Below, in pieces: positions 3,173 to 24,064 of a stretch of DNA of 34,083 nucleotides (positions are counted from its first letter, which is position 1; every line of letters begins with the position of its first letter). The notes beneath the pieces were generated by a model that saw only the letters and a list, made by a program, of their open reading frames with translations, was not told the DNA's origin and ran no database searches. Made by a program: the position numbers and the translations under genes. The stretch spans positions 1-34,083 of the forward strand of contig CAYUNL010000008.1 in assembly GCA_964446055.1 (NCBI GenBank), read 5' to 3'. Origin of the DNA: an uncultured Alphaproteobacteria bacterium. GTDB lineage: Bacteria > Pseudomonadota > Alphaproteobacteria > VGEJ01.

Positions 3173-3197
3173 TACCGCCGTCTCCGCCGGCCGCGGA

Positions 3198-5099: not shown

Positions 5100-5104
5100 C
5101 GCCC

Positions 5105-7000: not shown

Positions 7001-7500
7001 GCGGCCTCGGAAGCGTGCCGCTGGCCCGACCGCGACCCGATCGCGGCCAGATTGGCACGGGTGCTCTCGTCGAGGCCGACGCCGCGCGCCCCTGCCTCAG
7101 CGATGACGCGCCCGGCGATCGATTCGAAGGCGTCCAGGTTCGATTCGAGCCGCAGCCCTACCCGGCCGCCACGCAGGCGTAGCTGCATCCAGCCTTTTGT
7201 GCGGTCGCGACGGGTCGAGAAATACCGGAGCTCCACCTTGGACAGCTCGGCCCACTCGATCGCGGCAGCGAACGGGCCCAGTGCCCGGATGCCGGTGCTG
7301 GTGAGCCGTATCGTGGTCAGATGACGGATCGCGGTGCGCGCCGCGAACAGCGCGAACAGCAGCGCCAGCGCGCCCATCACGTAGACCAGAACGGGAGCGG
7401 GATTGATCAAAGCCAGCGGGCCCGCGGTAATAAGGATGCCGGCACCGGCGCGAACGTAGTCGGGGGTGAGCGCGGCGGCGGTGTAGCGGTGCTCGCTCAT
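6997..7500 (-). CDS. small membrane protein of unknown function (two predicted N-terminal TM helices plus a soluble C-terminal domain)
   Basis: Start MSEHRYTAA at ATG 7498-7500, 5 nt after the deacetylase stop. Hydrophobic stretches GAGILITAGPLALI and VLVYVMGALALLFALFAA, followed by a charged soluble domain. The stop overlaps the ATPase start. Confidence 0.55.
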   Translation of the reverse strand: MSEHRYTAAALTPDYVRAGAGILITAGPLALINPAPVLVYVMGALALLFALFAARTAIRHLTTIRLTSTGIRALGPFAAAIEWAELSKVELRYFSTRRDRTKGWMQLRLRGGRVGLRLESNLDAFESIAGRVIAEAGARGVGLDESTRANLAAIGSRSGQRHASEAA

Positions 7501-7505
7501 AAGCC

Positions 7506-8285
7506 TTAGAGGGTAAAGATTTTCGCCAGCGATGGCCAGCGTACCGAGCCATGTCCGCGGGTGCGGGCGGCGAACTTGGCAAGGAACGCCCACGCCGCCT
7601 CGTCGTGCACGAGGTGATGGGTGAGGATACCGAGGGGGCGCGCCTCGGCAGCGCCGCGAAGCATCACCAGGCGCGCGACGATGGCCTCGAGCGCCGCCGC
7701 CTCGCCGACGAACGCCCTGCTCCCGCGCCAGTCGACAATGTCGACGTCGGCATCGCGGCGTTGCAGGCCGGCAACCGACAATGGCGCCACCGCCGATGCG
7801 GTGATGGTGCTAAGGCCGCGATAGCCGGCCCCGGGAAGCCGCGGGATCAGAGCGTCGGCGATGCGGTTCCACGGAGGCACCAGCACCGGCATCGCCCGCG
7901 CCCCGAAAAGCTCCACGGTCACCGACCAGGCGCGACCCAGCTCCTCGATCACGGCATCGGGGTCGCGGCCAGGCGGGAACTCGGCCTTCTTCTCGCCGGG
8001 CGGCGCGTGATTGTGGTGCGCATAGCCGTGCGGCACCGCGACCAGGCCCTCGGACGCCGCGGCGATTCGCGCGGCCAGCGCCGGTCCCGCGGCCGCGGGA
8101 ATGACTGCCAGGCAGAGCGGCAGCTCGGCCTCGCCCGTAAGATCGATCAAGCGCGCGAGCGCCGTCGTCGGCTCGGCGGCGTCGTCATCGCGCAACCAGA
8201 GATCGAGCGCGCGGCCCGCGCCGGCCCATGCATCGAGCTCTTCGGCGAGCGCTCGCCAACCTACCACGGCACCGCCTCGGCCCAC
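7506..8285 (-). CDS. polysaccharide deacetylase-like (NodB-homology/CE4-like) protein
   Basis: 259 aa. Motifs reminiscent of NodB motifs: LRDDD (cf. TFDDG), HGYAHHNH (His pair), LVPPWN (cf. RPP.G) and ILTHH. GTG start at 8283-8285 (alternative GTG at 8265-8267). Either start overlaps the 3' end of the upstream GT gene. Confidence 0.6.
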   Translation of the reverse strand: MGRGGAVVGWRALAEELDAWAGAGRALDLWLRDDDAAEPTTALARLIDLTGEAELPLCLAVIPAAAGPALAARIAAASEGLVAVPHGYAHHNHAPPGEKKAEFPPGRDPDAVIEELGRAWSVTVELFGARAMPVLVPPWNRIADALIPRLPGAGYRGLSTITASAVAPLSVAGLQRRDADVDIVDWRGSRAFVGEAAALEAIVARLVMLRGAAEARPLGILTHHLVHDEAAWAFLAKFAARTRGHGSVRWPSLAKIFTL

Positions 8286-9421
8286 TCCTCGACCAGCGCC
8301 GCGCTACGCTCGGCGCCGCCGGTATCCAGCTCGCCCGAGTGCCCAGGCGGGGCATCGATCGCCGTCTCGACGGCGGCGGCGAGCCTTGCGGGGGTCAGTG
8401 CGGCCTCGTCCAAGACGTGGATCGCGCCGCGCGCTTCGAGCGCCCTGGCGCGCAGCGTTTGCTCGGTCTCGATGCCGCCGGCGTAGGGAACGACGATGGC
8501 GCGCGCCCCGGCGTCGAGCAGCTCCATCACCGTGTTGTAGCCGCCTTGGCTGATCGACAGCGCGCAGTTCATGAGCAGGCTGGTAAAGTCGGCGCGGGCG
8601 CGCTCGACGACGACGCCATCGGGTGCCACGGCGCGCAGCGATTCGAAATCCGCCGCGCTGACCGAGACGCCGACGAGCACCCGCCACCGGCTCGATTTCA
8701 GCCGGGTCTTGGCGCGAGCGGCGATCGCGGTTTGCAAAAGCGCGAGCCCGACCGCGCCGCCGCCCGCCGAGACCACGACTTCGCCGTCGCCCGGGCTGCC
8801 GGGGCCGCCGCGCTTGCCGGTGCGGTCCACCACGTAGCCGGTGTAGGCGATCTTGCCGGCGATTCGGGCGGCGTGCGGAAACGTGCGCTCGAAGGGCACC
8901 AAGCTCGGATCGCCGTGGACCAGGACGCGGTCGAAGTAACCTTCGATGAGGCCGAGCATCTCGTCGTTGCGCCCGGGTTTGTGCTGGGCAACCAGGATAT
9001 CGCGGACCGACGAGGCGATGCATGGCCGGTGAGGGCCGGCGACCGCGGCATCGAGCAGGGGCACGATTTCGAAGCGTAATTGGCGGCGACCAAAGGGGAA
9101 GAGCTCGAACAGAAGTACATGAGGCCGATACTCGAGCCACGCCTTGTGCAGCGCCTCGCGGCGGCGCGCCCGCCACGAATCGTCGATGGCGGCATCGTTG
9201 TCATCGACCAGCACCTTGAAATAGAGATCGGTCGCGCGGGTCGGCGGCAGCTGAATGAACCGCGCCGAGGCAACGTCGAGGCCCGGGACATCGTGGCCGC
9301 CCGAGACCAGGGCGACGTCGAGCCCCGCCGCGGTAAAGGCGCGGGCAAGTGTGGCGGCGCGCCTGAGATGGCCGATCCCCAGCAGGTGCTGAACGTAGAA
9401 GAAGACCCGGCGGCGGCTCAT
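8261..9421 (-). CDS. glycosyltransferase, GT-B fold (GT28 C-terminal-domain/MurG-like; N-terminal GIGHLRR motif)
   Basis: 386 aa. N-terminus RRVFFYVQHLLGIGHLRR. C-terminal half has VVSAGGG...SISQGGYNTVMELL, typical of the MurG/UDP-glycosyltransferase C-domain. Paralog of 12456..13703. The ATG forms an ATGA overlap with the phosphatase stop. Confidence 0.75.
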   Translation of the reverse strand: MSRRRVFFYVQHLLGIGHLRRAATLARAFTAAGLDVALVSGGHDVPGLDVASARFIQLPPTRATDLYFKVLVDDNDAAIDDSWRARRREALHKAWLEYRPHVLLFELFPFGRRQLRFEIVPLLDAAVAGPHRPCIASSVRDILVAQHKPGRNDEMLGLIEGYFDRVLVHGDPSLVPFERTFPHAARIAGKIAYTGYVVDRTGKRGGPGSPGDGEVVVSAGGGAVGLALLQTAIAARAKTRLKSSRWRVLVGVSVSAADFESLRAVAPDGVVVERARADFTSLLMNCALSISQGGYNTVMELLDAGARAIVVPYAGGIETEQTLRARALEARGAIHVLDEAALTPARLAAAVETAIDAPPGHSGELDTGGAERSAALVEEWAEAVPW

Positions 9422-10020
9422 CGCGGCTCTCCGCGGCGAACCAATGGCTCGTTGAACCGCTCGGCTCGCACCTCACCCCCGCCATCGAGCACGAAGAGGT
9501 GGGCACACACCCACTCGAGCCGGACGGGTGGCCTTCCGATCATGTCCCAGCCCAGGGCAAGCGCGAAAACCGCACGGATCACCCCTTTGTGGGTGACCGC
9601 TACGGTTGGCGTTTTCGCCCGCCCGACTTCGCGTAGCCAGGGCGCCAGACGGGTTTGTACATCGCGTGGGCTTTCGCCGCGCGGCGGCGTGAAGTCGAGG
9701 CCACGGTCCTCGTTTTCGCGCATGGCAGGGCCCAACTCGTCGCGGAGCTCCGCCAGCGTCCGGCCCTCCCACGCCCCCCAGTCCATTTCGATCAGCCGCG
9801 GCTCGGTTCGCAGCTCATCGGCCCCAAGCAGCTGCGCGGTCTCGGTGGCGCGCCGGAGCGGGCTCGAAACCCACGCCGCGCCGTCCAGCCCAGGCGGCGG
9901 TCCGAGCCCTTCGAAGTCGCCTCGGCCGCGCCCGGAAAGCGGGATGTCGGCGCGGCCCTGAATACGTCCGGCCTGGTTCCACGCCGTGGCGCCGTGGCGG
10001 ATCAACCCCAGCAAGGTCAT
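9418..10020 (-). CDS. histidine phosphatase (phosphoglycerate-mutase-like) family protein
   Basis: Start MTLLGLIRHGAT at ATG 10018-10020 (ATGA overlap with the GT4 stop). Has the RHG catalytic motif and a second His in VTHKGVIRA. 200 aa. Confidence 0.8.
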   Translation of the reverse strand: MTLLGLIRHGATAWNQAGRIQGRADIPLSGRGRGDFEGLGPPPGLDGAAWVSSPLRRATETAQLLGADELRTEPRLIEMDWGAWEGRTLAELRDELGPAMRENEDRGLDFTPPRGESPRDVQTRLAPWLREVGRAKTPTVAVTHKGVIRAVFALALGWDMIGRPPVRLEWVCAHLFVLDGGGEVRAERFNEPLVRRGEPR

Positions 10021-11162
10021 CGCGCGCAGGCCCGCCGGAGGGCACCATCGAGCCGTTCGCCGGCGCGAGCCAGGGTCCGGTCGGCGCCGATCCACGCCCG
10101 AGCCGTTTGGCCCATGCGGCGGCGCAGGCCGGCATCCTCGATCAGCGCCTGGAGGCGCTCGGCGAAAGCATCCGGCGCCGCGCCGGCAACCAGGAAGCCG
10201 GTCTTGCCATCGCAGACGACGTCGCGGACGCCGCCGTCATCGCCAGCGACCACGGGCAGTCCGGCCGCCTGGGCCTCGAGCATGGCCATCCCATAGGCCT
10301 CGTTGACGGCAGGCCATGCGTAGATGTCGGCAGCCGCGAAGACCGCCGGCATCTCCGCCGCGGCCAGCGCCCCGGCGAACACCACCCGGCGCGAGCCAAA
10401 CCCGGCGAACGCCGCTTCGACTTCGGCGCGGGCTTCGCCCTCACCGACCACGATGAGTCGCCAGTCGTCGCGGCTGAGCCGCACCAGCGCCTCGGCAAGT
10501 CGACGGTAGGAATGGAGCTTGTCGCCCGCCCGCATCATGCCGACCGCCAGCAGCCACACCGCGTCTTCGTCCAGCGCCCATTTTCGCGCGAACGACGCGC
10601 GTGCGGCCTCGCGGCCGGAAGCGGCGGCGGCGAAGGGATCGTGGTCGAGGAATGGCGGTAGATGAACAAGCCGGTCGGGCGCGGCGACGATGGCGCGCAC
10701 GCAGTTCATGTCGAGCGCGGTCATGCACAAGACCGCGTCGGCCCGGGCGATCGCCGCCGCCGCCGCCTCGTGCCCGCGCCGCCAGATTCCTTGGGCGCGC
10801 TTTGGCGCATGGGAGGCCTCGGCCACGACATACGCGATCCCAAGGCCACGCGACACCGCCGGGCCGATCCAGTCGGGCGCCCGATAGTAGAGGTGGTAAG
10901 TGAACCAAAGCTCGGGGCGTGCCTCGGGCGCGACCAGGCGGTAGCCTGTCAGCAGAGCGGCGGCCTCGATTTCGCCGACCGCCTGCAGCGCCTGTTGGCC
11001 GGCGCCGTCGGGTGAGCGGTCGTAGCTGCGAAAGCTCGAGGCGAGCGTAACCGTGTGTCCGGCCGCGCGAAGCGCCTCCATGATCAGGCTCGCCATCGCC
11101 CGGTCGCCCGAGGCCACCGGGTGCGTCGGGGCCTTCAGCGGCGCGTAGAACGCGATGCGCAC
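10017..11162 (-). CDS. glycosyltransferase family 4 (GT-B, group 1)
   Basis: GTG start at 11160-11162 (VRIAFYAPLKAPTHPVASGDR...), 1 nt after the upstream TGA (11164-11166). C-terminal motif NEAYGMAMLEAQAAGLPVVAGDDGGVRDVV is a typical EX7E-type GT4 region. 381 aa. Confidence 0.8.
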   Translation of the reverse strand: MRIAFYAPLKAPTHPVASGDRAMASLIMEALRAAGHTVTLASSFRSYDRSPDGAGQQALQAVGEIEAAALLTGYRLVAPEARPELWFTYHLYYRAPDWIGPAVSRGLGIAYVVAEASHAPKRAQGIWRRGHEAAAAAIARADAVLCMTALDMNCVRAIVAAPDRLVHLPPFLDHDPFAAAASGREAARASFARKWALDEDAVWLLAVGMMRAGDKLHSYRRLAEALVRLSRDDWRLIVVGEGEARAEVEAAFAGFGSRRVVFAGALAAAEMPAVFAAADIYAWPAVNEAYGMAMLEAQAAGLPVVAGDDGGVRDVVCDGKTGFLVAGAAPDAFAERLQALIEDAGLRRRMGQTARAWIGADRTLARAGERLDGALRRACAR

Positions 11163-11163
11163 G

Positions 11164-12447
11164 TCAAGCGCCGCCGGCCCCGGAAACCGCCGCCCTGCCG
11201 AGGGGTGCCGCATCCGCGCCACCGGTATCGGGCGCGAACAACCGGGCCAGCCGGTCGATGCCGTCGGCGACATCGAAGTGGGTGCGGACGCGTATCTCGC
11301 CGGCCCGGCCCAGCGCACGACGGCGCTGAGGATCGGCGATGAGCTCGCCGAGCGCCGCCGCCATTGCTCCCACGTCGCCGGCCGCGACGAGCCGGCCGGT
11401 CACGCCATCCTCGATGAGTTCGGGGATTGCCGCGCTTGCGGTCGAGACGCAGGCCAGTGCTTGGCTCTGGGCCTCGACCAGCACGTTGGGCAGGCCGTCG
11501 CGGTCACCGTCGCGGGCGGTTCGGCTCGCCAGCACGAAGAGGTCGGATTGGCGGTAGCTTTCGAGCACCGCGTCATGGGGTTGCGCACCGTGCCACTCAA
11601 TGCGCGAGGCGAGACCGAGGCGCCGCGCCCGGCGCTTGAGACGGTCGAGTAGCGGTCCGCCCCCGACATGATCGAGACGCCAGTGGAGGGCCGGCGGCAA
11701 TCGGGAGAGCGAAGTCAGAAGATCGTCGTAGCCCTTCTTGGGCACGGCGCGGCCGATCGAGACCAGGCGCACGGGGTCGGCTGCGTCGGTCCCGTCGCGG
11801 TTGTACGCGGGTGCGGGATTCGGGGGAAAACGGTCGGGGTCGAGCCCGTGATAGACGAGGTGCACGCGGCCCGGCGGGGCGAGGGTCGCCAGTTGATCGG
11901 CGTTGAGCGCGCTACACGCGGCGCACCAGGCGCAATCGTCGAGTTTTTCGGCCTTCTCCCACTGTGGAATCGTCCATACGTCTTTGGCGTGGGCCGAGAC
12001 GCTCCACGGCAGACCGGTCAGGAGACTGGTATAGCGGGCGACGGAACCGGGCGTGTGCAAGAAATGAGCGTGGAGATGGGTCACCGTCGGCTCGATCTCA
12101 TGCGCAAGCACCAGCGCCTGGCCGAATCGGCGCACCCGGTTGGGACTCGGATCGCGTGCGAGATCGCGAAGCCAAAGCGTGCGCGCCGCCGTATAGGCGG
12201 GCCGACGACGCAGCGCGCGCCACGCCCCGAGGACGCGCATCGGCTCGCGGAACAGATACTCCGGGAGGTAGCGGACCGGGGCCACGATTGTCTCGTGAAT
12301 CGGGTGGGTATGGGCGTCGCCGGGCTGGCGCAGCGAGACGATGACGATCCTTAGGCCGCGCTGCTCGAGCGCGTGAATCTCTTGGGAGATGAAGGTCTCG
12401 GACAGCCGGGGATAGCCCTTGACGATAAAGGCGTAGGTTCCCGGCAT
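11164..12447 (-). CDS. glycosyltransferase family 4 (WcaL/AmsK-like)
   Basis: Start MPGTYAFIVKGYPRLSETFISQEI at ATG 12445-12447, 8 nt after the upstream stop (spacer contains AAGG). C-terminal DGLPNVLVEAQSQALACVSTASAAIPELIEDGVTG is a GT4 signature. Confidence 0.8.
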   Translation of the reverse strand: MPGTYAFIVKGYPRLSETFISQEIHALEQRGLRIVIVSLRQPGDAHTHPIHETIVAPVRYLPEYLFREPMRVLGAWRALRRRPAYTAARTLWLRDLARDPSPNRVRRFGQALVLAHEIEPTVTHLHAHFLHTPGSVARYTSLLTGLPWSVSAHAKDVWTIPQWEKAEKLDDCAWCAACSALNADQLATLAPPGRVHLVYHGLDPDRFPPNPAPAYNRDGTDAADPVRLVSIGRAVPKKGYDDLLTSLSRLPPALHWRLDHVGGGPLLDRLKRRARRLGLASRIEWHGAQPHDAVLESYRQSDLFVLASRTARDGDRDGLPNVLVEAQSQALACVSTASAAIPELIEDGVTGRLVAAGDVGAMAAALGELIADPQRRRALGRAGEIRVRTHFDVADGIDRLARLFAPDTGGADAAPLGRAAVSGAGGA

Positions 12448-12455
12448 CGGGACCT

Positions 12456-13703
12456 TCAGGCGGGGCGGCGAATGCGCTCGGGCGCGGACCCGGTCCTGCC
12501 GAGCCACGGCGCGGCGAGACGATTGACGTTGTCGAGGCCCTCGAGGAGGCCGGGAACCACGACCTTGGACGGCCGGCGCTGACCGGGAAGGGCGCGCAAC
12601 GCCCGCGCCATGATCTCGGGATCATACTCGCCGTCGTCGTTCAGCATGCGGACCAGACCCAGTTCCTGGGCGCGTGAGGCGCGGATGAACTGCTCGCGCC
12701 GAGGCACCGTCCGCGGCACGATGAGCGCACGTTTGTCGAGCGAGAGTATCTCGCAGAAGGTGTTGTAGCCGCCCATCGCCACGATCGCGGCGGCGCGCGC
12801 CTCGAGCTCCTCCATGTGGGGGCTGAAGGTGATGGCGTCGAGGCGCGCCAGCGACGCGGCGCGGCGCTTGAACTCCGCCTGCTGCTCGGGCGCCATGAAC
12901 GGGCCCAGCACCATCAGCGCTGGATAGGGCAGCATGGGCTCGCTTTCGTAGGCGCGCAGAACCCACTCGATGAGGCCGACGCCATCACCGCCGCCACCGG
13001 TGGTGACCAAAAGGTAGGGCTTGCGGGCGATCTCGGGGAGCGGCGCCGCGGTGGCCGAGCGCGCCACCGCGCGCGGCAGATAGCCGGTGTAGACGATCCG
13101 TCGGCGGATCGAGGCGGGCATGCCGATCTCGGCCAAGGGTTCGCAAATCTGCGGCAGCCCGTAGATCCAGATTTCGTCGTACAAATCCTCCAGCGCGGGC
13201 AGGACCTTCTTGCGCTCCCATTCCGGCCCCAGCAGCGCCGGCTCGTCCAAGACGTCGCGGAGGCCGAGAACCAACCGCGTGCCGCGCGTCTTGAGCAGTT
13301 TGAGCGTGTCGTGGACCTCGCCGCGAAGGCCCAGCGGCTCTTTGTCGACGATGAAGATGTCGGGATCGAAGATCTCGGCGGTGTGCTGGATGATCGAGGC
13401 CCGCATCGATAGGGTCTGTTCGACGTCGATGTGGAGGTTGAGCGCCGTGTATTCGCCGTTGCGCAGCTTGATCACGCCGGGAACGCGCACGAAATCGACC
13501 CGCGCGCGGAAGTCGAATCGTCCGATGATCGGGGAGCCCGACAGAATCAGCGCCGACAGCTGCTTGTGGTTCTCGACGAGCGAGTTGGCGATGGTCAGGC
13601 AGCGCCGCAGATGCCCGAGCCCGAAGGTGTCATGGCTATAGATAAGGACGCGCGCCACACCATCGGCGCCGGGGCGGCTGCCCGCGGTGACCTCCTTTAG
13701 CAT
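12456..13703 (-). CDS. glycosyltransferase, GT-B fold (GT28 C-terminal-domain/MurG-like; N-terminal GLGHLRR motif)
   Basis: ATG at 13701-13703 (MLKEV...). The track ORF starts at an upstream TTG (13725-13727); the true start is uncertain. Contains RVLIYSHDTFGLGHLRR and ...LLVTTGGGGDG...VAMGGYNTFCEILS. First gene of the minus-strand operon. Confidence 0.75.
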   Translation of the reverse strand: MLKEVTAGSRPGADGVARVLIYSHDTFGLGHLRRCLTIANSLVENHKQLSALILSGSPIIGRFDFRARVDFVRVPGVIKLRNGEYTALNLHIDVEQTLSMRASIIQHTAEIFDPDIFIVDKEPLGLRGEVHDTLKLLKTRGTRLVLGLRDVLDEPALLGPEWERKKVLPALEDLYDEIWIYGLPQICEPLAEIGMPASIRRRIVYTGYLPRAVARSATAAPLPEIARKPYLLVTTGGGGDGVGLIEWVLRAYESEPMLPYPALMVLGPFMAPEQQAEFKRRAASLARLDAITFSPHMEELEARAAAIVAMGGYNTFCEILSLDKRALIVPRTVPRREQFIRASRAQELGLVRMLNDDGEYDPEIMARALRALPGQRRPSKVVVPGLLEGLDNVNRLAAPWLGRTGSAPERIRRPA

Positions 13704-13817
13704 GGGCGCACTATGGCATACCCCCAAGCGCGGCCAAAAGCCAATTGTTGGGGCAAATGCCGACGTTTACCGCGCTGCCCGCCTACGATAAGCTCTCGCC
13801 CGCGCCGCACCGGGTAG
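13704..13817. promoter_or_regulatory. divergent intergenic region that must carry promoters for the GT operon (leftward) and the ABC-exporter unit (rightward)
   Basis: It is the only non-coding gap between the two divergent units. Only weak short inverted repeats (CCAATTGTTGG, GGCAAATGCC) are visible. I could not call a convincing -35/-10 or Crp-type site. Confidence 0.4.
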
Positions 13818-16526
13818 ATGATCGTGCGTCGGGGAAACCGACCGAGCCACCCCATGGAACCATCGATCTTCAAGTTCGTCATTCGATATAGTCTGCGCCA
13901 GCAGGTGTTCCTTACGGTGATGGCGGCGCTTTCGTTTCCCTTCCTGTACGCCTTCTATGAGCTGCCCAAACAGATCGTAAACGGCGCGATCCAAGCCGAC
14001 GGGGCCGACTTTCCGAAGTCTCTGATCCCCGATTTCATCGCCCCGGACGCGCTGCCGCTCGACCACCTGCCCTTCCTCTTCGTGCTGTGCGCGCTGTTCC
14101 TGGTCCTGGTGGTCGTGAATCAGGGCTTCAAGTACTACGTTAACGTCTACCGCGGGCTCACCGGCGAGCGCATGCTGCGACGGCTTCGCTATGAGCTCTA
14201 TAGCCGGGTTTTGCGCTTCCCCCTTCCCACCTTCCGCAAGGTCAGCCAGGGCGAGATCATTCCGATGATCACCGCCGAGGTCGAACCACTGGGCGGGTTC
14301 ATTGGCGAGGCCTTCTCGCTGCCCGCCTTTCAGGGCGGAACGCTGCTGGTGATCGTGACCTTCCTGTTCATCCAGAGCCCGCTGATGGCAGCCGCGGCGA
14401 TCGCACTCTACCCGCTTCAGATGTACCTGATTCCCAAGCTTCAGCGCCGCGTAAACATGCTGGGAAAGGAGCGCGTTCGCCTGGTCCGCCGGCTGTCGGA
14501 CCGGATCGGCGAAACCGTCCAGGGCGTGCAAGAGGTGCATACCCACGACACCTCGAACCTCGAACTCGCGAACTTCACCGACCGGCTGGGCTCGATCTTG
14601 GACGTTCGCTACAAGATTTACCGATTGAAGTTCGTCATCAAGTTCCTGAACAACTTCATTCAGCAGCTTGGACCCTTCTTCTTCTATTCGATCGGTGGCT
14701 ATCTGGTGATCACTGGGGGCCTCGATATCGGCACGCTGATCGCCGCAATCGCCGCCCAGAAGGATCTCGCCTCGCCGTGGAAGGAGCTGTTGAACTACTA
14801 CCAGCGAATGGAGGATTCGCGGATCAAGTACGAACAGGTCGTGACTCAGTTCGCGCCCAGCGGAATTCTCGACGCGAGCCATCAGCTCGACACCCCCGAG
14901 AAAGTCGAGCCCCTGTCGGGCGACGTCGCCGCGGCCAACGTGACGCTGACCGACGATCAAGACAACGCGGTCATCGACGGAGTCTCGTTTAAGATCGACG
15001 TCGATCGCCACGTCGCCATCGTCGGCACGGGCGCCAGCGGCAAGGAGGATTTGGCGCTTCTGATGGCGCGGCTCATCGCGCCCAGCAAGGGTACGTTTTC
15101 GGTCAACGGCCAAGGCATGGAGGGAATGCCCGAGGCAATCACCGGGCGGCGCATCTCGTACGTTGGCCCCTCGGGCTTCATCTTTGCGGCGAGCTTCGGC
15201 GAGAACCTGTTCTACGGGCTCAAGCACCGGCCCATGGTCGAGCCCACCTACGAGGGTGAGGCGGCCGCGAAATGGGCGAATCATCTCACGGAAGCCAAGG
15301 CGGCGGGCAACATCACCCATAACCTTGGCGCCGACTGGATCGACTACGCCGCGGCAGGGGTCGACGGGATGGAGGCACTGCGGGTGGAGGCCCTGCGCAT
15401 CTTGAGGCTGGTCGACCTCGGCCCCGACATCTATCAGCTTGGCTTGCGCGGCACCATCGACCCCGCCGCACATTCCGATCTTGCGGAGACCTTCTTGCGC
15501 GCCCGCGCCGCGCTGCGCGAGCGCAGCGCGGATTCGGAGATCGCCTCGCTGGTCGAGTTGTTCGATCGCAGTCTCTACAACACCAACGCGACGGTCGGAG
15601 AGAACGTGCTGTTTGGCAGCCCCAAGGGCGATGCCTTCGACATGGACAGCCTGGCCGAGAACGATTACGTGCTCTTGGTGCTGGAGAAGGTCGGCTTGAC
15701 CGAGATCATGGTCTCGATCGGCTACCAGGTCGCCGCAACGATGGTCGAGCTGTTCGCCGACCTACCGTCGGATCACGAGTTCTTCCAGAAGTTCAGCTTC
15801 ATCAGCGCCGAGGACCTGCCTGAATTCCAGGCCCTGTTGACGCGGGCCGACAAGGACAATCTCGATCAGCTGTCGGCCGAGGATCGAACCCGTCTCTTGT
15901 CGCAGCCCTTCAAGCTGGTTCCGGTGCGTCACCGCCTCGGCCTCATCGACGAGGAGATGCAGGGGCGGCTGTTGGAGGCACGCGCCGCCTTCGCCGAGGG
16001 ATTGCCCGAAGAGCTTACGGATTCGATCGAGTTCTACGACGCCGAGCGATACAACGCCTCGGCCAACCTGCAGGACAATATCCTGTTCGGCAAGATTGCC
16101 TACGGCGAGGCGAAGTCGGCGGAACGCGTCGGCACGCTGATCTCGGAGGTCATCAATGAGTTGGGGCTCGAGGACACGGTCGGACTCGTGGCCTTCGACT
16201 TCGAGGTCGGAATCGCGGGATCGCGCCTGTCCGCGGCGCAGCGCCAGAAGCTGGCCTTGGCCCGCGGCATCCTAAAGCGGCCCGATGTCTTGATCTTGTC
16301 CGAAGCCACCCAGACCCTCGATTCGGCCGCCCAGGCCAGGATCATGCGCAACATCTTGCAGGAGTTCAAAGGCCGCGGCGTGATCTGGGCGCTGCACGAT
16401 CCCGACGTGGCCAAGGAGTTCGATCACATCTTGGTAATGAAAAGCGGCAAGATTGCGGAGCAGGGAAGCCACACCGACCTCGACAAGGACGGCACGGTGT
16501 ATAATGGCTTGATGGCGGCGGAATGA
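13818..16526 (+). CDS. ABC exporter, fused TMD-NBD half-transporter with expanded, motif-degenerate NBD
   Basis: 902 aa (alternative ATG at 13854). The N-terminal ~330 aa has about 6 hydrophobic helices of ABC_membrane type. Walker A GTGASGKE at 15024-15047, signature LSAAQ at 16227-16241, Walker B VLILSE at 16287-16304, H-loop His at 16395-16397. Confidence 0.85.
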   Translation: MIVRRGNRPSHPMEPSIFKFVIRYSLRQQVFLTVMAALSFPFLYAFYELPKQIVNGAIQADGADFPKSLIPDFIAPDALPLDHLPFLFVLCALFLVLVVVNQGFKYYVNVYRGLTGERMLRRLRYELYSRVLRFPLPTFRKVSQGEIIPMITAEVEPLGGFIGEAFSLPAFQGGTLLVIVTFLFIQSPLMAAAAIALYPLQMYLIPKLQRRVNMLGKERVRLVRRLSDRIGETVQGVQEVHTHDTSNLELANFTDRLGSILDVRYKIYRLKFVIKFLNNFIQQLGPFFFYSIGGYLVITGGLDIGTLIAAIAAQKDLASPWKELLNYYQRMEDSRIKYEQVVTQFAPSGILDASHQLDTPEKVEPLSGDVAAANVTLTDDQDNAVIDGVSFKIDVDRHVAIVGTGASGKEDLALLMARLIAPSKGTFSVNGQGMEGMPEAITGRRISYVGPSGFIFAASFGENLFYGLKHRPMVEPTYEGEAAAKWANHLTEAKAAGNITHNLGADWIDYAAAGVDGMEALRVEALRILRLVDLGPDIYQLGLRGTIDPAAHSDLAETFLRARAALRERSADSEIASLVELFDRSLYNTNATVGENVLFGSPKGDAFDMDSLAENDYVLLVLEKVGLTEIMVSIGYQVAATMVELFADLPSDHEFFQKFSFISAEDLPEFQALLTRADKDNLDQLSAEDRTRLLSQPFKLVPVRHRLGLIDEEMQGRLLEARAAFAEGLPEELTDSIEFYDAERYNASANLQDNILFGKIAYGEAKSAERVGTLISEVINELGLEDTVGLVAFDFEVGIAGSRLSAAQRQKLALARGILKRPDVLILSEATQTLDSAAQARIMRNILQEFKGRGVIWALHDPDVAKEFDHILVMKSGKIAEQGSHTDLDKDGTVYNGLMAAE

Positions 16527-16547
16527 GCCCGCCCGAGGAGAGTTACG

Positions 16548-17003
16548 GTGAGCCTTAACGAAGAGGTCGAGCTGCTGCGCAATATTCCGCTGTTTAGCAA
16601 GATCGAGCCCTCGAAGCTGAAGCTCTTGGCATTCACGAGCGAGAGGCTGACCTTTCACAAGGACCAGGACTTGTGCGTCGAGGGCGAAATGGGCGACGCG
16701 GCATTCATCATTATCGACGGCGGCGCCGACGTCATCGTTTCGACACCCAGCGGGCCGCTCAAGGTCACCGAGGTGGCCAAGAACGACTTCGTCGGCGAGA
16801 TCTCGATCCTTCGTGATGTGCCGCGAACGGCGACCGTGACGGCGTCCTCGGACTGCACCGTCTTGCGCATCTCGAAGGACTTGTTCTTCCGGCTCGTGAG
16901 CGAGTTTCCCGAGATGGCGGTTGAGATCATGCGTGAGCTGGCCCGGCGATTGGAGAACACGACGATCCAGCTACGGGAGGCGACGACCGCCGCTTCCCAT
17001 TAG
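16548..17003 (+). CDS. stand-alone cyclic nucleotide-binding (cNMP/CAP-effector) domain protein
   Basis: 151 aa. GTG start preceded by GAGGAG (16535-16540). Contains LLRNIPLFSKIEPSKLKLLA, and a phosphate-binding cassette FVGEISIL...RTATVTA (16788-16838) with the conserved Arg-Thr-Ala. No HTH or other output domain. Confidence 0.85.
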   Translation: MSLNEEVELLRNIPLFSKIEPSKLKLLAFTSERLTFHKDQDLCVEGEMGDAAFIIIDGGADVIVSTPSGPLKVTEVAKNDFVGEISILRDVPRTATVTASSDCTVLRISKDLFFRLVSEFPEMAVEIMRELARRLENTTIQLREATTAASH

Positions 17004-17016
17004 ATCGGCCGACCCG

Positions 17017-17535
17017 ATGAGCCGGCTCGACAGCTTCATCCGGCGGACCATGGCGCAACGCGATTGCCTTGGCGAGGCGGCCCGATTGATCGCCGCGATA
17101 CCCGGGCCGGTGCTGGAATTCGGTCTCGGCAACGGCCGCACCTACGATCACCTTCGGACGCTGCTGCCGGAGCGGGAGATTTTCGTATTCGACCGCCAGA
17201 TCGCCGCTCACCCCGAGTGCATCCCCGATCCCGAGCACATGGTGCTGGGCGATATCCACGACACCGTGCCCGCCGCGCGAGCCCGCATTCCCGAGCCCGC
17301 GGCGCTGGCCCATTGCGATGTCGGCACCGGGGACAAAGAGGCCTCGGCGGCGCTTGCGGCGTGGCTGGCACCGCTGCTCAAGCCGCTATTGGCCCCTGGC
17401 GCGGTCGTCGTTTGCGATCAGGAGGCACTTTGGTGCGAAGGCTTCTCGCGGCTTCCGCCGCCGGAGGGCGTCCCCGAGGGGCGCTATTTCATGCTGCGGT
17501 TGGGGCCCGCATCGGCGGGCCGGGATTCGCCCTAG
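17017..17535 (+). CDS. small class I methyltransferase-fold protein (putative)
   Basis: Start MSRLDSFIRR at ATG 17017, 13 nt after the cNMP gene stop. Gly-rich motif-I-like VLEFGLGNGRTYDHL. 172 aa. Functional assignment is weak. Confidence 0.45.
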   Translation: MSRLDSFIRRTMAQRDCLGEAARLIAAIPGPVLEFGLGNGRTYDHLRTLLPEREIFVFDRQIAAHPECIPDPEHMVLGDIHDTVPAARARIPEPAALAHCDVGTGDKEASAALAAWLAPLLKPLLAPGAVVVCDQEALWCEGFSRLPPPEGVPEGRYFMLRLGPASAGRDSP

Positions 17536-17906: not shown

Positions 17907-18069
17907 TCTTTCCTCGCCGCGGCGAACGTTCTTTGTCGCCCGTGGGCGCACTACCCAAGTGCCCTTTGTTGGGAGGCATACTACAGGGTGAATGCTTAAC
18001 GGGTCACTACCGCATCGCCCGTTTTCGCCGACCGCAGTAACATGTTTGCGATCACTCCGTGGCCGCGGC

Positions 18070-21061: not shown

Positions 21062-21190
21062 CTCTCCCGCCGCAACGCCAACTCCGACCCTGAATTTACC
21101 CGAAGAAGCGTTTCGATACAACCACTTGCAGGGAGATATGCGACCTATACTTTATCTACGCCAGTGATCCCCTTGAATGCGCGCGCGCCG

Positions 21191-22513: not shown

Positions 22514-22592
22514 GGCTCGATCCTTCCTCTGCGGACCCGCCCACGCCGCTCCCTGACCGCGGCGCGCCGGTCGCTCCCCCTCCTGCCCTTTC

Positions 22593-24049: not shown

Positions 24050-24064
24050 GCGAGAGAAGTAGCC

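What the first reader, a model, noticed from the sequence alone, without database searches (positions are those of the whole stretch)
7506..17535. Divergent glycosyltransferase/phosphatase/deacetylase operon and cNMP-associated atypical ABC exporter: candidate undescribed glycoconjugate synthesis/export system
A 114-nt divergent gap (13704..13817) separates two units. Leftward are six translationally coupled genes: a GLGHLRR-type GT, two GT4s, a histidine phosphatase, a second GIGHLRR-type GT and a NodB-like deacetylase, with junctions of +8, +1, -4, -4 and -25 nt. Rightward are a 902-aa ABC exporter with an expanded, degenerate NBD, a stand-alone cNMP-binding protein (21-nt gap, GAGGAG SD) and a small methyltransferase-fold protein (13-nt gap), ending tail-to-tail with an orphan CheY-like receiver. 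The window has no Wzx/Wzy/Wza/Wzc genes, no polyprenyl-phosphate priming transferase and no nucleotide-sugar synthesis genes. It therefore does not look like a standard EPS, capsule or O-antigen locus. Four GTs plus a phosphatase and a deacetylase fit better with a short, defined oligosaccharide or glycoside built on a phosphorylated acceptor. The divergent ABC exporter would be its only visible export route, and a cyclic nucleotide a possible control input. The functional link is inference; the gene content and coupling are read from the sequence.
Basis: partly seen in the sequence, partly recalled or inferred. Interest (0 to 1): 0.8.

Follow-up and report, generated by a model that had tools for sequence, protein, structure and literature searches.

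The report
Sugar-building operon with cNMP-linked pseudo-ABC protein
This is an uncharacterised gene module, widespread in Alphaproteobacteria including model rhizobia, that joins sugar-building enzymes, a sugar-type uptake system and an ABC-transporter look-alike that has lost its ATP motor and is instead paired with a cyclic-nucleotide sensor.

Summary
The unit is larger than stated, and the "exporter" is not what it seemed.

- **Operon size.** The six enzyme genes (GT28a, GT4a, GT4b, histidine phosphatase, GT28b, CE4-fold deacetylase) head an 11-gene minus-strand array (13703 to 972). It continues through a small membrane protein (TM167) and a complete Opp-family ABC importer.
- **Importer.** Its binding protein is closest to sugar binders such as the pectin-oligosaccharide binder SPH1118, not to peptide binders.
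- **ABC protein.** The divergent 902-aa protein has a type IV exporter fold. Its nucleotide-binding domain is degenerate in all 77 close relatives aligned, and the motifs are absent in five distant ones. It carries a ~315-aa insertion containing repeated Q-loop-like segments (the repeat is firmly supported for two of three).
- **cNMP partner.** The cNMP-binding protein has a fully conserved binding motif. It is fused to the ABC C-terminus in all nine long family members tested. Class III cyclases sit beside the pair in five lineages.
- **Conservation.** The gene set is kept in at least six gene orders, in Sneathiella, Ferrovibrio, Azospirillum, Sulfitobacter, Rhizobium leguminosarum and Sinorhizobium meliloti pSymB.
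- **Linkage strength.** The enzymes are tied to the importer most tightly (24/24 loci). The ABC–cNMP pair adjoins in about 60%.

No paper describing the module was found. The product and the direction of transport remain inferred.

The parts
972..2150 (-). PermC: OppC-type permease of the importer (392 aa). Its ATG at 2150 overlaps the PermB stop by 4 nt.
   Evidence: PF00528 and OppC_N; NCBIfam Opp4C-like, below cut-off; start mapped; conserved next to the enzymes.
2147..3172 (-). PermB: OppB-type permease of the importer (341 aa).
   Evidence: NCBIfam Opp4B-like, 217 bits, below cut-off; 55-76% identical in related loci.
3198..5099 (-). Large family-5 substrate-binding protein (633 aa from Met42) of the sugar-binding branch.
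   Evidence: PF00496. Best PDB matches: 5IPW (8e-82), SPH1118 pectin-oligosaccharide binder (6e-71, full length), MelB alpha-galactoside binder and chitin-oligosaccharide binder. SPH1118 binds pectin, not peptides (PMC9314435).
5105..7000 (-). Fused double ABC ATPase of the importer (631 aa; GsiA/YejF-like architecture).
   Evidence: NCBIfam GsiA 605 bits and YejF 561 bits, both below cut-off. Adjacent to the enzyme genes in 24/24 loci with enough flank and in 65/80 ABC-seeded loci.
6997..7500 (-). TM167: small protein with a hydrophobic N-terminal stretch (read by eye as two membrane helices) and a soluble C-terminal domain. No family match.
   Evidence: No Pfam or NCBIfam hit. Present in 64/80 loci. 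Co-varies with the ABC protein: 15 both, 8 neither, 2 TM167 only, 0 ABC only.
7506..8285 (-). Cytoplasmic CE4/NodB-fold deacetylase (DUF2334-like), 253-259 aa, with no N-terminal signal-like stretch seen by eye.
   Evidence: AF2 pLDDT 95. Foldseek matches CE4 acetylxylan esterases, peptidoglycan and chito-oligosaccharide deacetylases, E 1e-8 to 1e-5. Invariant DDD, HGxxH, PPWNR and HH motifs. Weak DUF2334 or PF01522 hits in 15 and 4 of 24 homologues.
8261..9421 (-). GT28b: GT-B glycosyltransferase of the MurG/GT1 type (GIGHLRR motif), 386 aa.
   Evidence: PF04101, 45.6 bits. Profile matches YjiC (5e-10) and MurG (5e-9). Paralogue of GT28a, hhalign 99.9%.
9418..10020 (-). Histidine phosphatase, branch 1, 200 aa; RHG motif present.
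   Evidence: PF00300, 1.4e-40. PDB: alpha-ribazole-5'-phosphate phosphatase, PhoE, glucosyl-3-phosphoglycerate phosphatase.
10017..11162 (-). GT4b: retaining GT4 glycosyltransferase, 381 aa.
   Evidence: PF00534, 2e-30. Best PDB matches are 3c4q/3c48 (1.6e-17; deposited as 'predicted glycosyltransferases', which I take from memory to be C. glutamicum MshA), then PimB' and WaaG. Gained and lost together with HisP and Deac.
11164..12447 (-). GT4a: GT4 glycosyltransferase, 427 aa (WcaL/EpsE-like N-terminus).
   Evidence: PF00534 and PF13439. NCBIfam EpsE 138 bits, below cut-off. PDB: PimB', BshA. Present in 75/80 and 55/58 loci.
12456..13703 (-). GT28a: first gene of the array; GT-B glycosyltransferase (GLGHLRR motif), 415 aa. 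The most conserved enzyme of the set.
   Evidence: PF04101, 24.7 bits. 64-91% identical in related loci, absent in Sneathiella. No PDB relative by sequence.
13704..13853 (.). Divergent control region. It holds a conserved palindrome CTATGGCATA(g) at 13711-13720 and a conserved TTTACC-N17-TAAGCT motif at about 13766-13794.
   Evidence: Alignment of the intergenic region from 8 genomes; positions. No Rfam family and no sigma-70 consensus match.
13818..16526 (+). ABC*: type IV ABC-exporter-fold membrane protein with a degenerate nucleotide-binding domain and a ~315-aa insertion (about aa 475-790). Likely true start 13854.
   Evidence: PF00664 plus split PF00005. AF2 pLDDT 77; Foldseek top hits P-gp, TmrAB, PCAT1, MsbA. 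Motif degeneracy. Internal repeat, hhalign 96%, E 1.6e-9. The insertion alone finds 1008 representative proteins.
16548..17003 (+). Stand-alone cNMP-binding protein (151 aa, too short for a DNA-binding domain). Partner of ABC*.
   Evidence: PF00027, 9.5e-17. The GE...PR[TS]A cassette is kept in the sequence variants listed from 76 homologues. Adjacent in 75/80 loci. Fused to the ABC* C-terminus in Azospirillum, Sulfitobacter, Ruegeria, L065 and 9/9 long family members.
17017..17535 (+). MT17: small SAM-methyltransferase-fold protein (PF12692). An accessory part.
   Evidence: PF12692, 9.8e-55. Present in 37/80 loci. The same family lies directly upstream of ABC* in Azospirillum.

Best explanation
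Window 972-17535 is one conserved functional module, not two neighbouring units.

**Shown here:**
- An 11-gene, tightly packed minus-strand array encodes four cytoplasmic GT-B glycosyltransferases, a histidine phosphatase, a CE4-fold deacetylase, a small membrane protein and a complete binding-protein-dependent importer. The importer's binding protein belongs to the sugar-binding branch of family 5.
- It is read divergently from a gene pair that encodes an ABC-exporter-fold protein with a degenerate ATPase domain and a cyclic-nucleotide receptor.

**Inferred:**
- The enzymes assemble a short soluble oligosaccharide or glycoside in the cytoplasm.
- GT28a, GT4a and GT28b form the invariant core.
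- GT4b, HisP and Deac form an optional sub-path that adds an amino sugar through a phosphorylated, N-acetylated intermediate, in the logic of MshA, its phosphatase and MshB.
- Methyltransferases decorate the product in some lineages. UDP-sugar dehydrogenases in others suggest an acidic product.
- The product crosses the inner membrane through the ABC-fold protein. Opening of that protein would be controlled by cNMP binding to its partner or fused domain, together with TM167, rather than by ATP hydrolysis.
- The importer then recaptures the product or a processed form of it.
For: **One module.**
- The same genes stay together in at least six gene orders across Sneathiellales, Ferrovibrio, Azospirillum, Roseobacteraceae and Rhizobiaceae.
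- Array junctions run from -25 to +25 nt.

**Biosynthetic rather than degradative.**
- The conserved set holds four nucleotide-sugar-type GT-B enzymes and no glycoside hydrolase, kinase or isomerase.
- A UDP-glucose/GDP-mannose-type dehydrogenase lies beside or inside the module in Rhizobium, Sinorhizobium and Sulfitobacter.
- Methyltransferases recur.

**Sub-path.**
- GT4b, HisP and Deac are present or absent together.
- GT4b's best PDB match is 3c4q/3c48, which I take to be MshA.
- The deacetylase has a CE4 fold with conserved Asp and His motifs.

**Pseudo-ATPase and cNMP control.**
- The ATPase motifs are degenerate or lost, while the membrane domain is the best conserved part of the protein.
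- A homologue consisting of the membrane domain alone exists.
- cNMP domain fusions were found in 9/9 long members tested.
- The cNMP-binding cassette is conserved.
- Class III cyclases lie next to the pair in L053, L065, L074, Rhizobium and Sinorhizobium.
- TM167 co-varies with the ABC protein.

**Sugar importer.** The SBP's closest characterised relatives bind oligogalacturonate, alpha-galactosides and chitin oligosaccharides.
Against: - No product, substrate or transport direction has been observed. Proteins of the type IV ABC fold also include importers (from my own knowledge).
- From the enzyme side, the ABC–cNMP pair is adjacent in only 26 of 46 loci. One lineage has the enzymes plus importer with unrelated genes upstream. 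A MAG labelled Thiotrichales has the six enzyme genes alone.
- The ABC–cNMP pair also occurs without the enzymes: L053 and Ruegeria.
- One family member carries a GGDEF output domain. That would suit a sensor better than a conduit.
- The tightest partner of the enzymes is an importer, which fits uptake-driven chemistry at least as well as export.
- The window's own copy keeps the Walker A lysine, the Walker B glutamate and the H-loop histidine. Residual nucleotide binding cannot be excluded.
Confidence: 0.45

Rival explanations
1. Uptake-driven remodelling or salvage. The importer brings in an external acidic or N-acetylated oligosaccharide, or the cell's own shed glycan. The cytoplasmic deacetylase, phosphatase and glycosyltransferases then process or re-elaborate it. 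The ABC*–cNMP–TM167 set is a membrane sensor or regulator of this traffic, not a conduit.
For: - Enzyme–importer linkage is 24/24, tighter than enzyme–ABC* linkage at 26/46.
- The SBP's characterised relatives serve assimilation: SPH1118 for pectin, MelB, and the chitin-oligosaccharide binder.
- Chito-oligosaccharide deacetylases are among the structural matches of the deacetylase model.
- ABC* lacks a working ATPase.
- One relative ends in a GGDEF domain.
- The ABC*–cNMP–cyclase trio exists without the enzymes in L053.
- S. meliloti adds a PF14099 polysaccharide lyase.
Against: - The conserved set contains no glycoside hydrolase, phosphorylase, sugar kinase or isomerase.
- Four nucleotide-sugar-type glycosyltransferases are unusual for a degradative route.
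- UDP-sugar dehydrogenases and methyltransferases point to synthesis.
- The membrane domain of ABC* is its most conserved part. That suggests it handles a ligand or substrate in the membrane.
Confidence: 0.25
2. Membrane-anchored glycoconjugate. The GT28- and GT4-type enzymes build a glycolipid or a lipid-linked core-type glycan at the inner leaflet. The MsbA-fold protein moves it to the outer leaflet.
For: - ABC* matches MsbA, PglK-like and ABCB4-type lipid transporters by sequence and fold.
- GT28b's profile matches MurG.
- PimB' and WaaG, which act on lipid-anchored acceptors, are among the best PDB matches of the GT4s.
- From my own knowledge, GT28 and GT4 include MurG and glycosyl-diacylglycerol synthases.
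Against: - The module contains no acyltransferase, no lipid-carrier priming enzyme and no ligase.
- A soluble-ligand importer is the enzymes' most constant partner.
- The flippase candidate has lost its ATPase motifs.
- The phosphatase and deacetylase show no predicted membrane segments on reading their sequences.
Confidence: 0.12
3. A self-contained synthesis operon (7506-13703) has its product pumped out by an ATP-driven, cNMP-modulated ABC exporter. The neighbouring importer is unrelated.
For: - The window's copy of ABC* keeps the Walker A Gly-Lys, the Walker B Glu and the H-loop His.
- The gene content is confirmed.
- The link between the two divergent units is supported.
Against: - The Walker A Ser/Thr, the Walker B Asp and the Q-loop Gln are missing even in the window's copy. 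In relatives that keep the same gene neighbourhood, the motifs are absent altogether.
- The importer is co-linear with overlapping stop and start codons. It is conserved with the enzymes in every gene order seen.
Confidence: 0.08
4. Chance neighbours. The enzymes, the importer and the ABC*–cNMP pair are unrelated genes that are merely syntenic within one clade.
For: - Flanking housekeeping genes (lolA, ftsK) are also syntenic in the closest relatives.
- Each sub-unit can occur alone somewhere.
Against: - lolA and ftsK drop out quickly (18-19 of 80 loci), while the module persists down to 32-40% identity.
- The module persists on plasmids and chromids, and after inversion and reordering onto a single strand.
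- Gene fusions join ABC* to the cNMP domain.
Confidence: 0.03

Closest known systems
Type IV (ABCB/MsbA-like) ABC exporters, e.g. MsbA, PCAT1, TmrAB, NdvA/ChvA
   Same: The membrane domain (PF00664) and overall fold match: Foldseek E about 1e-17 to 1e-20 and target-normalised TM about 0.6. The order membrane domain then NBD is the same, and an NBD core is recognisable.
   Different: Walker A, Q-loop, Walker B and H-loop are degenerate or lost across the relatives examined. A ~315-aa insertion with a repeated Q-loop/'ENxLFG' segment lies between the Q-loop and the signature. A cNMP-binding partner or fusion is present. No NCBIfam model reaches its cut-off; the best is MsbA at 191 bits against 602.
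CFTR (ABC-fold channel under cAMP control) – resemblance recalled from memory, used as an analogy only
   Same: An ABC-exporter fold is reused with impaired ATP sites and placed under cyclic-nucleotide signalling.
   Different: CFTR still binds and hydrolyses ATP at one site and is controlled indirectly by a kinase. Here a cNMP-binding domain is attached directly, and both sites of a homodimer would be defective. No channel activity has been shown. There is no homology beyond the general ABC fold.
cNMP-domain proteins linked to bacteriocin-type ABC exporters (NCBIfam TIGR03896 / TIGR03797)
   Same: A cNMP-binding domain is associated with a type IV ABC protein. TIGR03896 matches the 151-aa protein weakly (32.6 bits) and TIGR03797 matches ABC* (121.7 bits).
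   Different: Both scores lie far below the cut-offs (161 and 709). Those systems are annotated as peptide exporters. Here there is no peptide precursor or protease, and the ATPase is degenerate.
Early mycothiol/bacillithiol pathway (MshA–phosphatase–MshB; BshA–BshB)
   Same: A GT4 enzyme, a phosphatase and a cytoplasmic de-N-acetylase act as a unit. GT4b's best solved relative is 3c4q/3c48, which I take to be MshA. BshA is among the matches of both GT4s. The three genes co-vary.
   Different: The MshA and BshA models score far below their cut-offs: 87 against 462, and 64 against 274. The deacetylase has a CE4 fold, whereas MshB and BshB belong to the LmbE family (from my own knowledge). There is no cysteine ligase. 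The sub-path is optional within a larger glycosyltransferase set.
Opp-family sugar importers: Sphingomonas A1 SPH1114-1118 (pectin), Agrobacterium MelB, Vibrio chitin-oligosaccharide system
   Same: The binding protein is unusually large (about 630 aa). It is homologous over its full length to SPH1118 (6e-71) and weaker to MelB and the chitin-oligosaccharide binder. The same Opp-type permeases and ATPases are present. SPH1118 was annotated as a peptide binder but binds acidic oligosaccharide.
   Different: Those systems serve assimilation or chemotaxis. The papers read here list only ABC transporter genes next to sph1118 and mention no glycosyltransferases. The ligand here is unknown. The ATPase here is a fused double NBD.
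Wzx/Wzy-, ABC-2 (Wzm/Wzt)- or synthase-dependent polysaccharide loci
   Same: Clustered glycosyltransferases with a deacetylase and, in some lineages, a UDP-sugar dehydrogenase.
   Different: The window has no Wzx, Wzy, Wza, Wzc, Wzm/Wzt, priming transferase or GT2 synthase. The transport-type partners are an importer and a pseudo-ABC protein.

Membership tests
ABC transporter ATPase (ABCB/MsbA-type half-transporter) | Six-helix type IV exporter membrane domain | tested here: met
   PF00664, 4.8e-21. Foldseek matches to TmrAB, PCAT1, MsbA and P-gp.
ABC transporter ATPase (ABCB/MsbA-type half-transporter) | Walker A GxxGxGK[ST] | tested here: not met
   The window has GTGASGKE. Most relatives have GxxGSGRE or G--DNGRD. 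Rhizobium, Sinorhizobium, Azospirillum, Ruegeria and Sulfitobacter have no Lys at all.
ABC transporter ATPase (ABCB/MsbA-type half-transporter) | Walker B hhhhDE with catalytic Glu, and H-loop His | tested here: not met
   The window has LILSEA, with no Asp. Relatives have LILNQA, IFNRPL or VIYQAL. The H-loop His is replaced by D, Q, E, S or A in most.
ABC transporter ATPase (ABCB/MsbA-type half-transporter) | Contiguous NBD with a Q-loop Gln and an LSGGQ signature | tested here: not met
   PF00005 is split by a ~315-aa insertion. The Q-loop Gln is absent in the window. The signature reads LSAAQ or LxxxQ.
CE4 / NodB-homology deacetylases | Distorted (beta/alpha) barrel NodB fold | tested here: met
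   AF2 pLDDT 95.1. 64 PDB matches at E<=1e-3; CE4 entries dominate the 50 listed, query-normalised TM about 0.5-0.68.
CE4 / NodB-homology deacetylases | Conserved Asp (catalytic and metal-binding) and a His-His metal site | tested here: inconclusive
   D33-D35, H86, H90 and H223/H224 are invariant in 35 sequences. Their positions in the predicted active site were not inspected. The window protein alone gives no Pfam hit, and homologues hit DUF2334 or PF01522 only weakly.
Glycosyltransferase family 4 (GT-B, retaining) | Glycos_transf_1 C-terminal domain above the Pfam cut-off | tested here: met
   GT4b 106 bits and GT4a 101 bits against a cut-off of 26.4.
GT28/GT1 MurG-like GT-B enzymes | Glyco_tran_28_C domain above the cut-off and an N-terminal G-x-G-H motif | tested here: met
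   GT28b 45.6 bits and GT28a 24.7 bits against a cut-off of 22. GIGHLRR and GLGHLRR are invariant. MurG equivalog 30 bits against 250, so these are not MurG itself.
Histidine phosphatase superfamily, branch 1 | His_Phos_1 domain with the RHG catalytic motif | tested here: met
   PF00300, 139 bits. 'LIRHGAT' is read in the sequence. CobC equivalog 108 bits against 163, so the specific function is not assigned.
CRP/FNR transcription factors | cNMP-binding domain followed by a helix-turn-helix DNA-binding domain | tested here: not met
   The protein is 151 aa and only PF00027 is found. CRP model 48.8 bits against 266. It is a stand-alone receptor domain, fused to ABC* in relatives.
YejABEF / Gsi / Opp peptide importers | Equivalog-level match of the subunits | tested here: not met
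   YejF 561 bits against 834, GsiA 605 against 1077, and the binding protein's best match is Opp4A at 83.5 against 650. The closest characterised relatives of the binding protein are sugar binders.
Wzx/Wzy or ABC-2 polysaccharide assembly loci | Flippase and polymerase or Wzm/Wzt, a priming transferase, and an outer-membrane export protein | tested here: not met
   None appears among the Pfam assignments made for the larger ORFs of the window. Two ORFs (24597-25331 and 30370-31029) gave no Pfam hit.

The most novel reading that the evidence does not exclude
The 902-aa protein and its roughly 1000 representative relatives would be a new functional class. It would be an ABC-exporter-fold membrane protein that has given up ATP hydrolysis and is switched by cyclic-nucleotide binding to a partner or fused domain. 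Its remodelled, repeat-bearing pseudo-NBD and the small TM167 protein would take part in that switch. It would act as a gated conduit, or a transmembrane sensor, for a self-made oligosaccharide that the cell also re-imports. That would amount to a make, release and recapture glycan circuit under cAMP/cGMP control in Alphaproteobacteria, including model rhizobia.
Probability: 0.3. Interest if true: 0.85.

Novelty: new variant of a known kind. Interest (0 to 1): 0.68.

Why it matters
- **An undescribed use of the ABC fold.** If the reading is right, an exporter scaffold would be controlled by a second messenger instead of ATP.
- **An orphan module in model organisms.** The module sits on S. meliloti pSymB and on R. 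leguminosarum plasmids. Both are genetically tractable symbionts in which cAMP signalling and surface or secreted glycans decide infection outcomes.
- **A partner for orphan cyclases.** Rhizobia carry many class III cyclases whose targets are unknown (from my own knowledge). This gives a concrete candidate partner for those that sit beside the module.
- **Annotation.** It suggests that a branch of 'oligopeptide' ABC importers is misannotated and really carries sugars.
- **A lead on glucuronan.** The S. meliloti version lies next to a UDP-sugar dehydrogenase and a PF14099 lyase. That Pfam family, as I recall, includes glucuronan lyases. The genes for glucuronan synthesis in that species are reported as unknown (PMC10180729). 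This is a lead only.

Tried and rejected
**Known systems considered and set aside.**
- The S. meliloti msbA2/SMb21188-21191 cluster, recalled from memory. The papers found for it concern a different locus.
- The Clr/cAMP-regulated polysaccharide cluster nodP2–smb21248 (PMC5498481). It has Wzx, ExoP-like and sulfotransferase genes and is a different region.
- YejABEF peptidoglycan or peptide uptake. The NCBIfam cut-offs are not met, and the binding protein groups with sugar binders.

**Searches that found nothing.**
- Riboswitch or other RNA element in the divergent gap: no Rfam hit; the only hit in the window is a tRNA.
- Sigma-70 promoter scan: none found. Terminator-like sites are fewer than expected by chance.
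- PDB sequence search for GT28a, alone and as a profile, and for the deacetylase alone.
- Pfam on the insertion alone and on TM167.
- Literature searches for the gene combination.

**Technical dead ends.**
- Locus tags for S. meliloti 1021 and 2011 could not be obtained, because the stored records carry no annotation.
The alignment was rebuilt from protein-search hits.
- Foldseek on the full ABC* model returned only generic ABC exporters and says nothing about the insertion.

**One correction to my own analysis.** The first tblastn table suggested that PermC homology extends into PermB. This is an alternative-frame artefact of the long high-GC ORF. The real start is the ATG at 2150.

Full report
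**1. The observation**

- On the minus strand lie Deac (7506-8285), GT28b (8261-9421), HisP (9418-10020), GT4b (10017-11162), GT4a (11164-12447) and GT28a (12456-13703). The junctions are +8, +1, -4, -4 and -25 nt.
- On the plus strand lie the 902-aa ABC ORF (13818-16526), the cNMP protein (16548-17003) and a small methyltransferase (17017-17535).
- A GAGGAG lies 6 nt ahead of the cNMP protein's GTG start, and the methyltransferase follows after a 13-nt gap.
- The methyltransferase overlaps the end of a convergent receiver gene (17532-17951) by 4 nt.

Pfam confirms every family except the deacetylase. Two small corrections apply.

- ABC homologues begin at Met13 of the ORF, which is invariant, and relatives are 883-890 aa. 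The likely start is 13854, and the divergent gap is about 150 nt.
- The deacetylase may start at 8267, because the collection's own gene call is 253 aa.

**2. The unit is larger than reported**

The minus-strand array does not end at 7506.

- Five nucleotides after the deacetylase stop comes a 167-aa protein with a hydrophobic N-terminal stretch that reads as two membrane helices (TM167, 6997-7500). It has no family match.
- Its stop overlaps the start of a 631-aa fused double ABC ATPase (5105-7000).
- Then come a 633-aa family-5 binding protein (3198-5099, +5 nt), an OppB-type permease (2147-3172, +25 nt) and an OppC-type permease (972-2150, ATGA overlap).

Eleven genes therefore run head to tail over 12.7 kb with junctions between -25 and +25 nt.

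**3. Conservation, seeded from the ABC protein**

A scan of one genome per species returned 80 loci, all but a few labelled Alphaproteobacteria. They include Sneathiella, Ferrovibrio, Oceanibacterium, and Rhodospirillaceae and Geminicoccaceae MAGs, at 44-91% identity. A tblastn of the window proteins against these loci gave the following counts:

| Gene | Loci (of 80) |
|---|---|
| cNMP | 75 |
| GT4a | 75 |
| GT28b | 70 |
| HisP | 70 |
| GT4b | 69 |
| Deac | 66 |
| importer ATPase | 65 |
| TM167 | 64 |
| GT28a | 46 (missing in Sneathiella) |
| MT17 | 37 |
| lolA / ftsK | 19 / 18 |
| receiver | 3 |

The rearranged loci are the most informative.

- In L065 the order is GT4a, GT4b, HisP, ABC fused to cNMP, ATPase, SBP, PermB, PermC on one strand. 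A cyclase on the opposite strand follows, then GT28a and Deac on the first strand again.
- L052 and L069 have (HisP), GT28b, ABC, cNMP, ATPase, SBP and the permeases on one strand.

**4. Annotated plasmids and chromids**

The ABC protein finds 345 plasmid records at 30-47% identity. These are mainly Rhizobium, Sinorhizobium, Roseobacteraceae and Azospirillum.

- *R. leguminosarum*: cyclase, ATPase, SBP, two permeases, GT28a, GT4a, GT28b, ABC, cNMP, all on one strand. A UDP-sugar dehydrogenase lies just upstream.
- *S. meliloti* pSymB (about 831-845 kb in strain 1021): the same, plus a PF14099 polysaccharide lyase.
- *Azospirillum* sp. B510: MT17, ABC fused to cNMP, importer, GT28a, GT4a, GT4b, HisP, GT28b, Deac on one strand.
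- *Sulfitobacter indolifex*: importer, then dehydrogenase, GT28a, GT4a, GT4b, HisP, GT28b, Deac, and ABC fused to cNMP.

The core kept in these four annotated records, and in most genome loci, is the importer, GT28a, GT4a, GT28b, ABC and cNMP; Sneathiella lacks GT28a. GT4b, HisP and Deac come and go as a block.

**5. Conservation, seeded from the enzymes**

A metagenome scan with the GT28a profile gave 80 more loci. Counting only loci with enough flanking sequence gave the following:

| Gene | Present / assessable |
|---|---|
| GT4a | 55/58 |
| GT4b | 27/28 |
| HisP | 26/28 |
| GT28b | 28/28 |
| Deac | 26/28 |
| importer ATPase | 24/24 |
| ABC | 26/46 |
| cNMP | 28/44 |

- One lineage (L104, L109, L113, L123, L124, L147) has the enzymes and importer but unrelated metabolic genes upstream.
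- TM167 tracks the ABC protein: 15 loci have both, 8 have neither, 2 have TM167 only and none has ABC only.
- A MAG labelled Thiotrichales carries the six enzyme genes in the same order, without the specific importer or the ABC protein within 10 kb.
- Conversely, L053 has ABC, cNMP and a cyclase without the enzymes. Ruegeria sp. B32 has a fused ABC–cNMP gene in an unrelated setting.

The module is thus built from separable sub-units. Enzymes plus importer form the tighter pair, and ABC, cNMP and TM167 form a second set.

**6. The ABC protein**

Sequence and fold place it among type IV exporters.

- The best NCBIfam match is MsbA at 191 bits against a cut-off of 602.
- PDB matches include ABCB1, ABCB4, PCAT1, TM287/288 and MsbA.
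- The AF2 model has pLDDT 77. Foldseek top hits are P-gp, TmrAB, PCAT1 and MsbA.

The NBD alignment is split. Residues about 384-473 carry the Walker A and Q-loop region, and residues 792-897 carry the signature, Walker B and H-loop. The motifs in 77 aligned relatives are as follows:

| Motif | Window | Relatives |
|---|---|---|
| Walker A | GTGASGKE | mostly GxxGSGRE or G--DNGRD |
| Q-loop | Gln missing | Gln present in some, missing in others |
| Signature | LSAAQ | LSxxQ, LNxxQ or LTxxQ |
| Walker B | LILSEA | LILNQA or similar |
| H-loop | His kept | D, Q or E in most |

In Rhizobium, Sinorhizobium, Azospirillum, Ruegeria and Sulfitobacter the Walker A lysine and the catalytic glutamate are gone altogether. 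The membrane domain is the best conserved part, with about 0.8 identity to the window residue over aa 100-175 and 276-300.

The insertion (about aa 475-790) has these properties.

- It has no Pfam match, yet it holds many invariant residues.
- It contains repeats of the segment that follows the Q-loop. Three copies of a '[ST]xxxNxLFG' motif occur, at 459-467, 592-600 and 750-758.
- Copies two and three align with 96% probability, E 1.6e-9, over 57 columns. Copy one matches only around the motif itself, with probability 70% and 45%.
- A search with the insertion alone against 1.84 billion representatives found 1008 proteins at E<=1e-3, and 296 at E<=1e-30. Lengths cluster near 840-930 aa and 1010-1085 aa.
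- All nine long members tested carry a C-terminal cNMP-binding domain. One carries a further GGDEF domain.

A 434-aa homologue consisting of the membrane domain alone (40% identity) sits in a copper-resistance cluster on a Phaeobacter plasmid.

These facts argue that the family does not work as an ATP-driven pump. They also argue that the cNMP receptor acts on it directly.

**7. The cNMP input**

- The 151-aa protein contains only PF00027 and is too short for a DNA-binding domain.
- Its phosphate-binding cassette (GEI[AS]IL...PRTA[TS]V) is kept in every sequence variant listed from the 76 homologues.
- Class III cyclase genes lie beside the pair in five lineages:
  - L053, directly downstream;
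  - L074, divergent;
  - L065, inside the module;
  - Rhizobium;
  - Sinorhizobium.
- No cyclase lies next to the module in this window.

**8. The enzymes**

- GT28a and GT28b are paralogues (hhalign 99.9%, 21% identity). They are GT-B enzymes of the MurG/GT1 type. The GT28b profile matches YjiC at 5e-10 and MurG at 5e-9.
- GT4b is closest to 3c4q/3c48 (1.6e-17), then PimB' and WaaG. The PDB table names 3c4q/3c48 only as 'predicted glycosyltransferases'; I take them from memory to be C. glutamicum MshA. GT4a is closest to PimB' and BshA.
- HisP is closest to alpha-ribazole-phosphate phosphatase and PhoE. Glucosyl-3-phosphoglycerate phosphatase is among its matches.
- The deacetylase model (pLDDT 95) matches CE4 acetylxylan esterases and peptidoglycan, chitin and chito-oligosaccharide deacetylases.
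- D33-35, H86, H90, the PPWNR motif and H223/224 are invariant in the deacetylase.
- Its N-terminus shows no signal-like stretch on reading, so it is probably cytoplasmic.
- Sources name its homologues 'polysaccharide deacetylase family protein'.

None of the enzymes reaches an equivalog cut-off in NCBIfam, so their specific activities are unassigned.

**9. The importer**

NCBIfam places the subunits in the Opp/Dpp/Gsi/Yej group, but below every cut-off. The binding protein's solved relatives are:

- 5IPW (8e-82);
- SPH1118 of Sphingomonas sp. A1 (6e-71 over the full length);
- the Agrobacterium alpha-galactoside binder MelB (1e-30);
- the Vibrio chitin-oligosaccharide binder (2.5e-16).

SPH1118 is a 69-kDa protein annotated as an oligopeptide binder. 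It binds pectin and unsaturated trigalacturonate and hardly binds peptide mixtures. It sits beside Opp-type permease and ATPase genes (PMC9314435 and PMC7055323). A sugar ligand, possibly acidic, is therefore more likely here than a peptide. This is an inference from homology.

**10. How it most likely works**

*Shown:* the gene set, its packing, its conservation through rearrangement, the fusions, the degenerate ATPase, the CE4 fold and the sugar-type binding protein.

*Inferred:*
- Cytoplasmic assembly of a short oligosaccharide or glycoside by the three core transferases.
- An optional amino-sugar branch made by GT4b, HisP and Deac.
- Decoration by methyltransferases.
- Passage across the inner membrane through the ABC-fold protein, under control of the cNMP receptor and TM167.
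- Recapture by the importer.

The main rival is uptake-driven remodelling, with the ABC–cNMP–TM167 set acting as a sensor. That rival is favoured by the 24/24 enzyme–importer linkage, by the assimilatory roles of the binding protein's relatives and by the GGDEF-bearing relative. It is disfavoured by the absence of any hydrolase, kinase or isomerase in the conserved set, and by the recurrent UDP-sugar dehydrogenases and methyltransferases. A lipid-anchored product is less likely, and pure coincidence is least likely.

**11. Comparison with what is known, and novelty**

The parts all belong to known superfamilies.

- The ABC protein fails four defining features of an ABC ATPase that were tested here, so I do not file it as a working ABC exporter.
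- The cNMP protein is not a CRP/FNR regulator.
- The importer is not YejABEF, Gsi or Opp at equivalog level.
- The locus is not a Wzx/Wzy or ABC-2 polysaccharide locus.

Literature searches for the gene combination, for msbA2, for the Clr regulon and for glucuronan found no description of this module. PGAP labels the ABC protein only 'ABC transporter transmembrane domain-containing protein'.

I rate it a new variant of a known kind: a glycan-building cluster with transport partners. It carries a real chance that the pseudo-ABC/cNMP device is something categorically new.

**12. Verdict**

- The finding is worth following up, and homologous modules lie in genetically tractable rhizobia.
- Interest: 0.68.

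Noticed in passing
window 13711-13720 and about 13766-13794: A conserved palindrome, CTATGGCATAG (imperfect in the window), lies 8-18 nt upstream of the GT28a start. A conserved TTTACC-N17-TAAGCT block lies in the divergent gap. They may be an operator and the promoter of the ABC gene. Both are kept in several genomes at 62-91% protein identity.
   Followed up: partly
L084 (S. meliloti 1021 pSymB 841723-844435) versus L085 (strain 2011): The ABC* gene match is 1 nt longer in strain 1021 than the 2712-nt gene of strain ml46 used as query (2713 against 2712 nt). Protein-level coverage falls from 96% to 83%. The common laboratory strain probably carries a frameshift in this gene.
   Followed up: partly
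L082 742-3068 and L081 1766-4989: In S. meliloti and R. leguminosarum the module is flanked by a UDP-sugar dehydrogenase and a class III cyclase. In S. meliloti there is also a PF14099 polysaccharide lyase. That Pfam family, as I recall, includes glucuronan lyases. A 2023 paper states that the glucuronan biosynthesis genes of S. meliloti are unknown (PMC10180729), so this locus is a candidate.
   Followed up: partly
L088 13785-15089 (Phaeobacter inhibens plasmid pP80_b): A 434-aa protein made of the membrane domain alone, about 40% identical to aa 9-364 of ABC*. It lies between copper oxidase, copper-binding, azurin-like and cytochrome c genes.
   Followed up: no
protein P0324 (1206 aa): A family member with the architecture ABC membrane domain, pseudo-NBD with the insertion, cNMP-binding domain and GGDEF domain. 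This hints at a signalling output for at least some members.
   Followed up: no
L053 10001-14443; L074 8406-12628: ABC*, the cNMP protein and a class III cyclase form a compact trio. In L053 there are no glycosyltransferases or specific importer within 10 kb.
   Followed up: partly
window 1-423 (+) and 491-862 (-): A Methyltransf_24-like ORF, cut by the window edge, and a glyoxalase-fold gene lie just beyond PermC. The methyltransferase homologue (65% identity) also adjoins PermC in L052. It may be a further accessory gene of the module.
   Followed up: partly
window 7000-13000 versus 13000-17000: The enzyme genes are 69-72% G+C. The ABC/cNMP region is 60-65%, below the window mean of about 67%.
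   Followed up: no
window 17532-17951 (-): The orphan CheY-like receiver that abuts the methyltransferase is conserved in only 3 of 80 related loci. It is not part of the module.
   Followed up: yes
window 18070-34063: The right-hand flank holds ordinary genes unrelated to the module:
- lolA, ftsK and an ammonium transporter;
- a UbiH-like flavoprotein and a thioredoxin-TPR protein;
- a tRNA (26399-26470) and a molybdopterin oxidoreductase;
- a GFO/IDH/MocA oxidoreductase, an SDR and MipA.
   Followed up: yes
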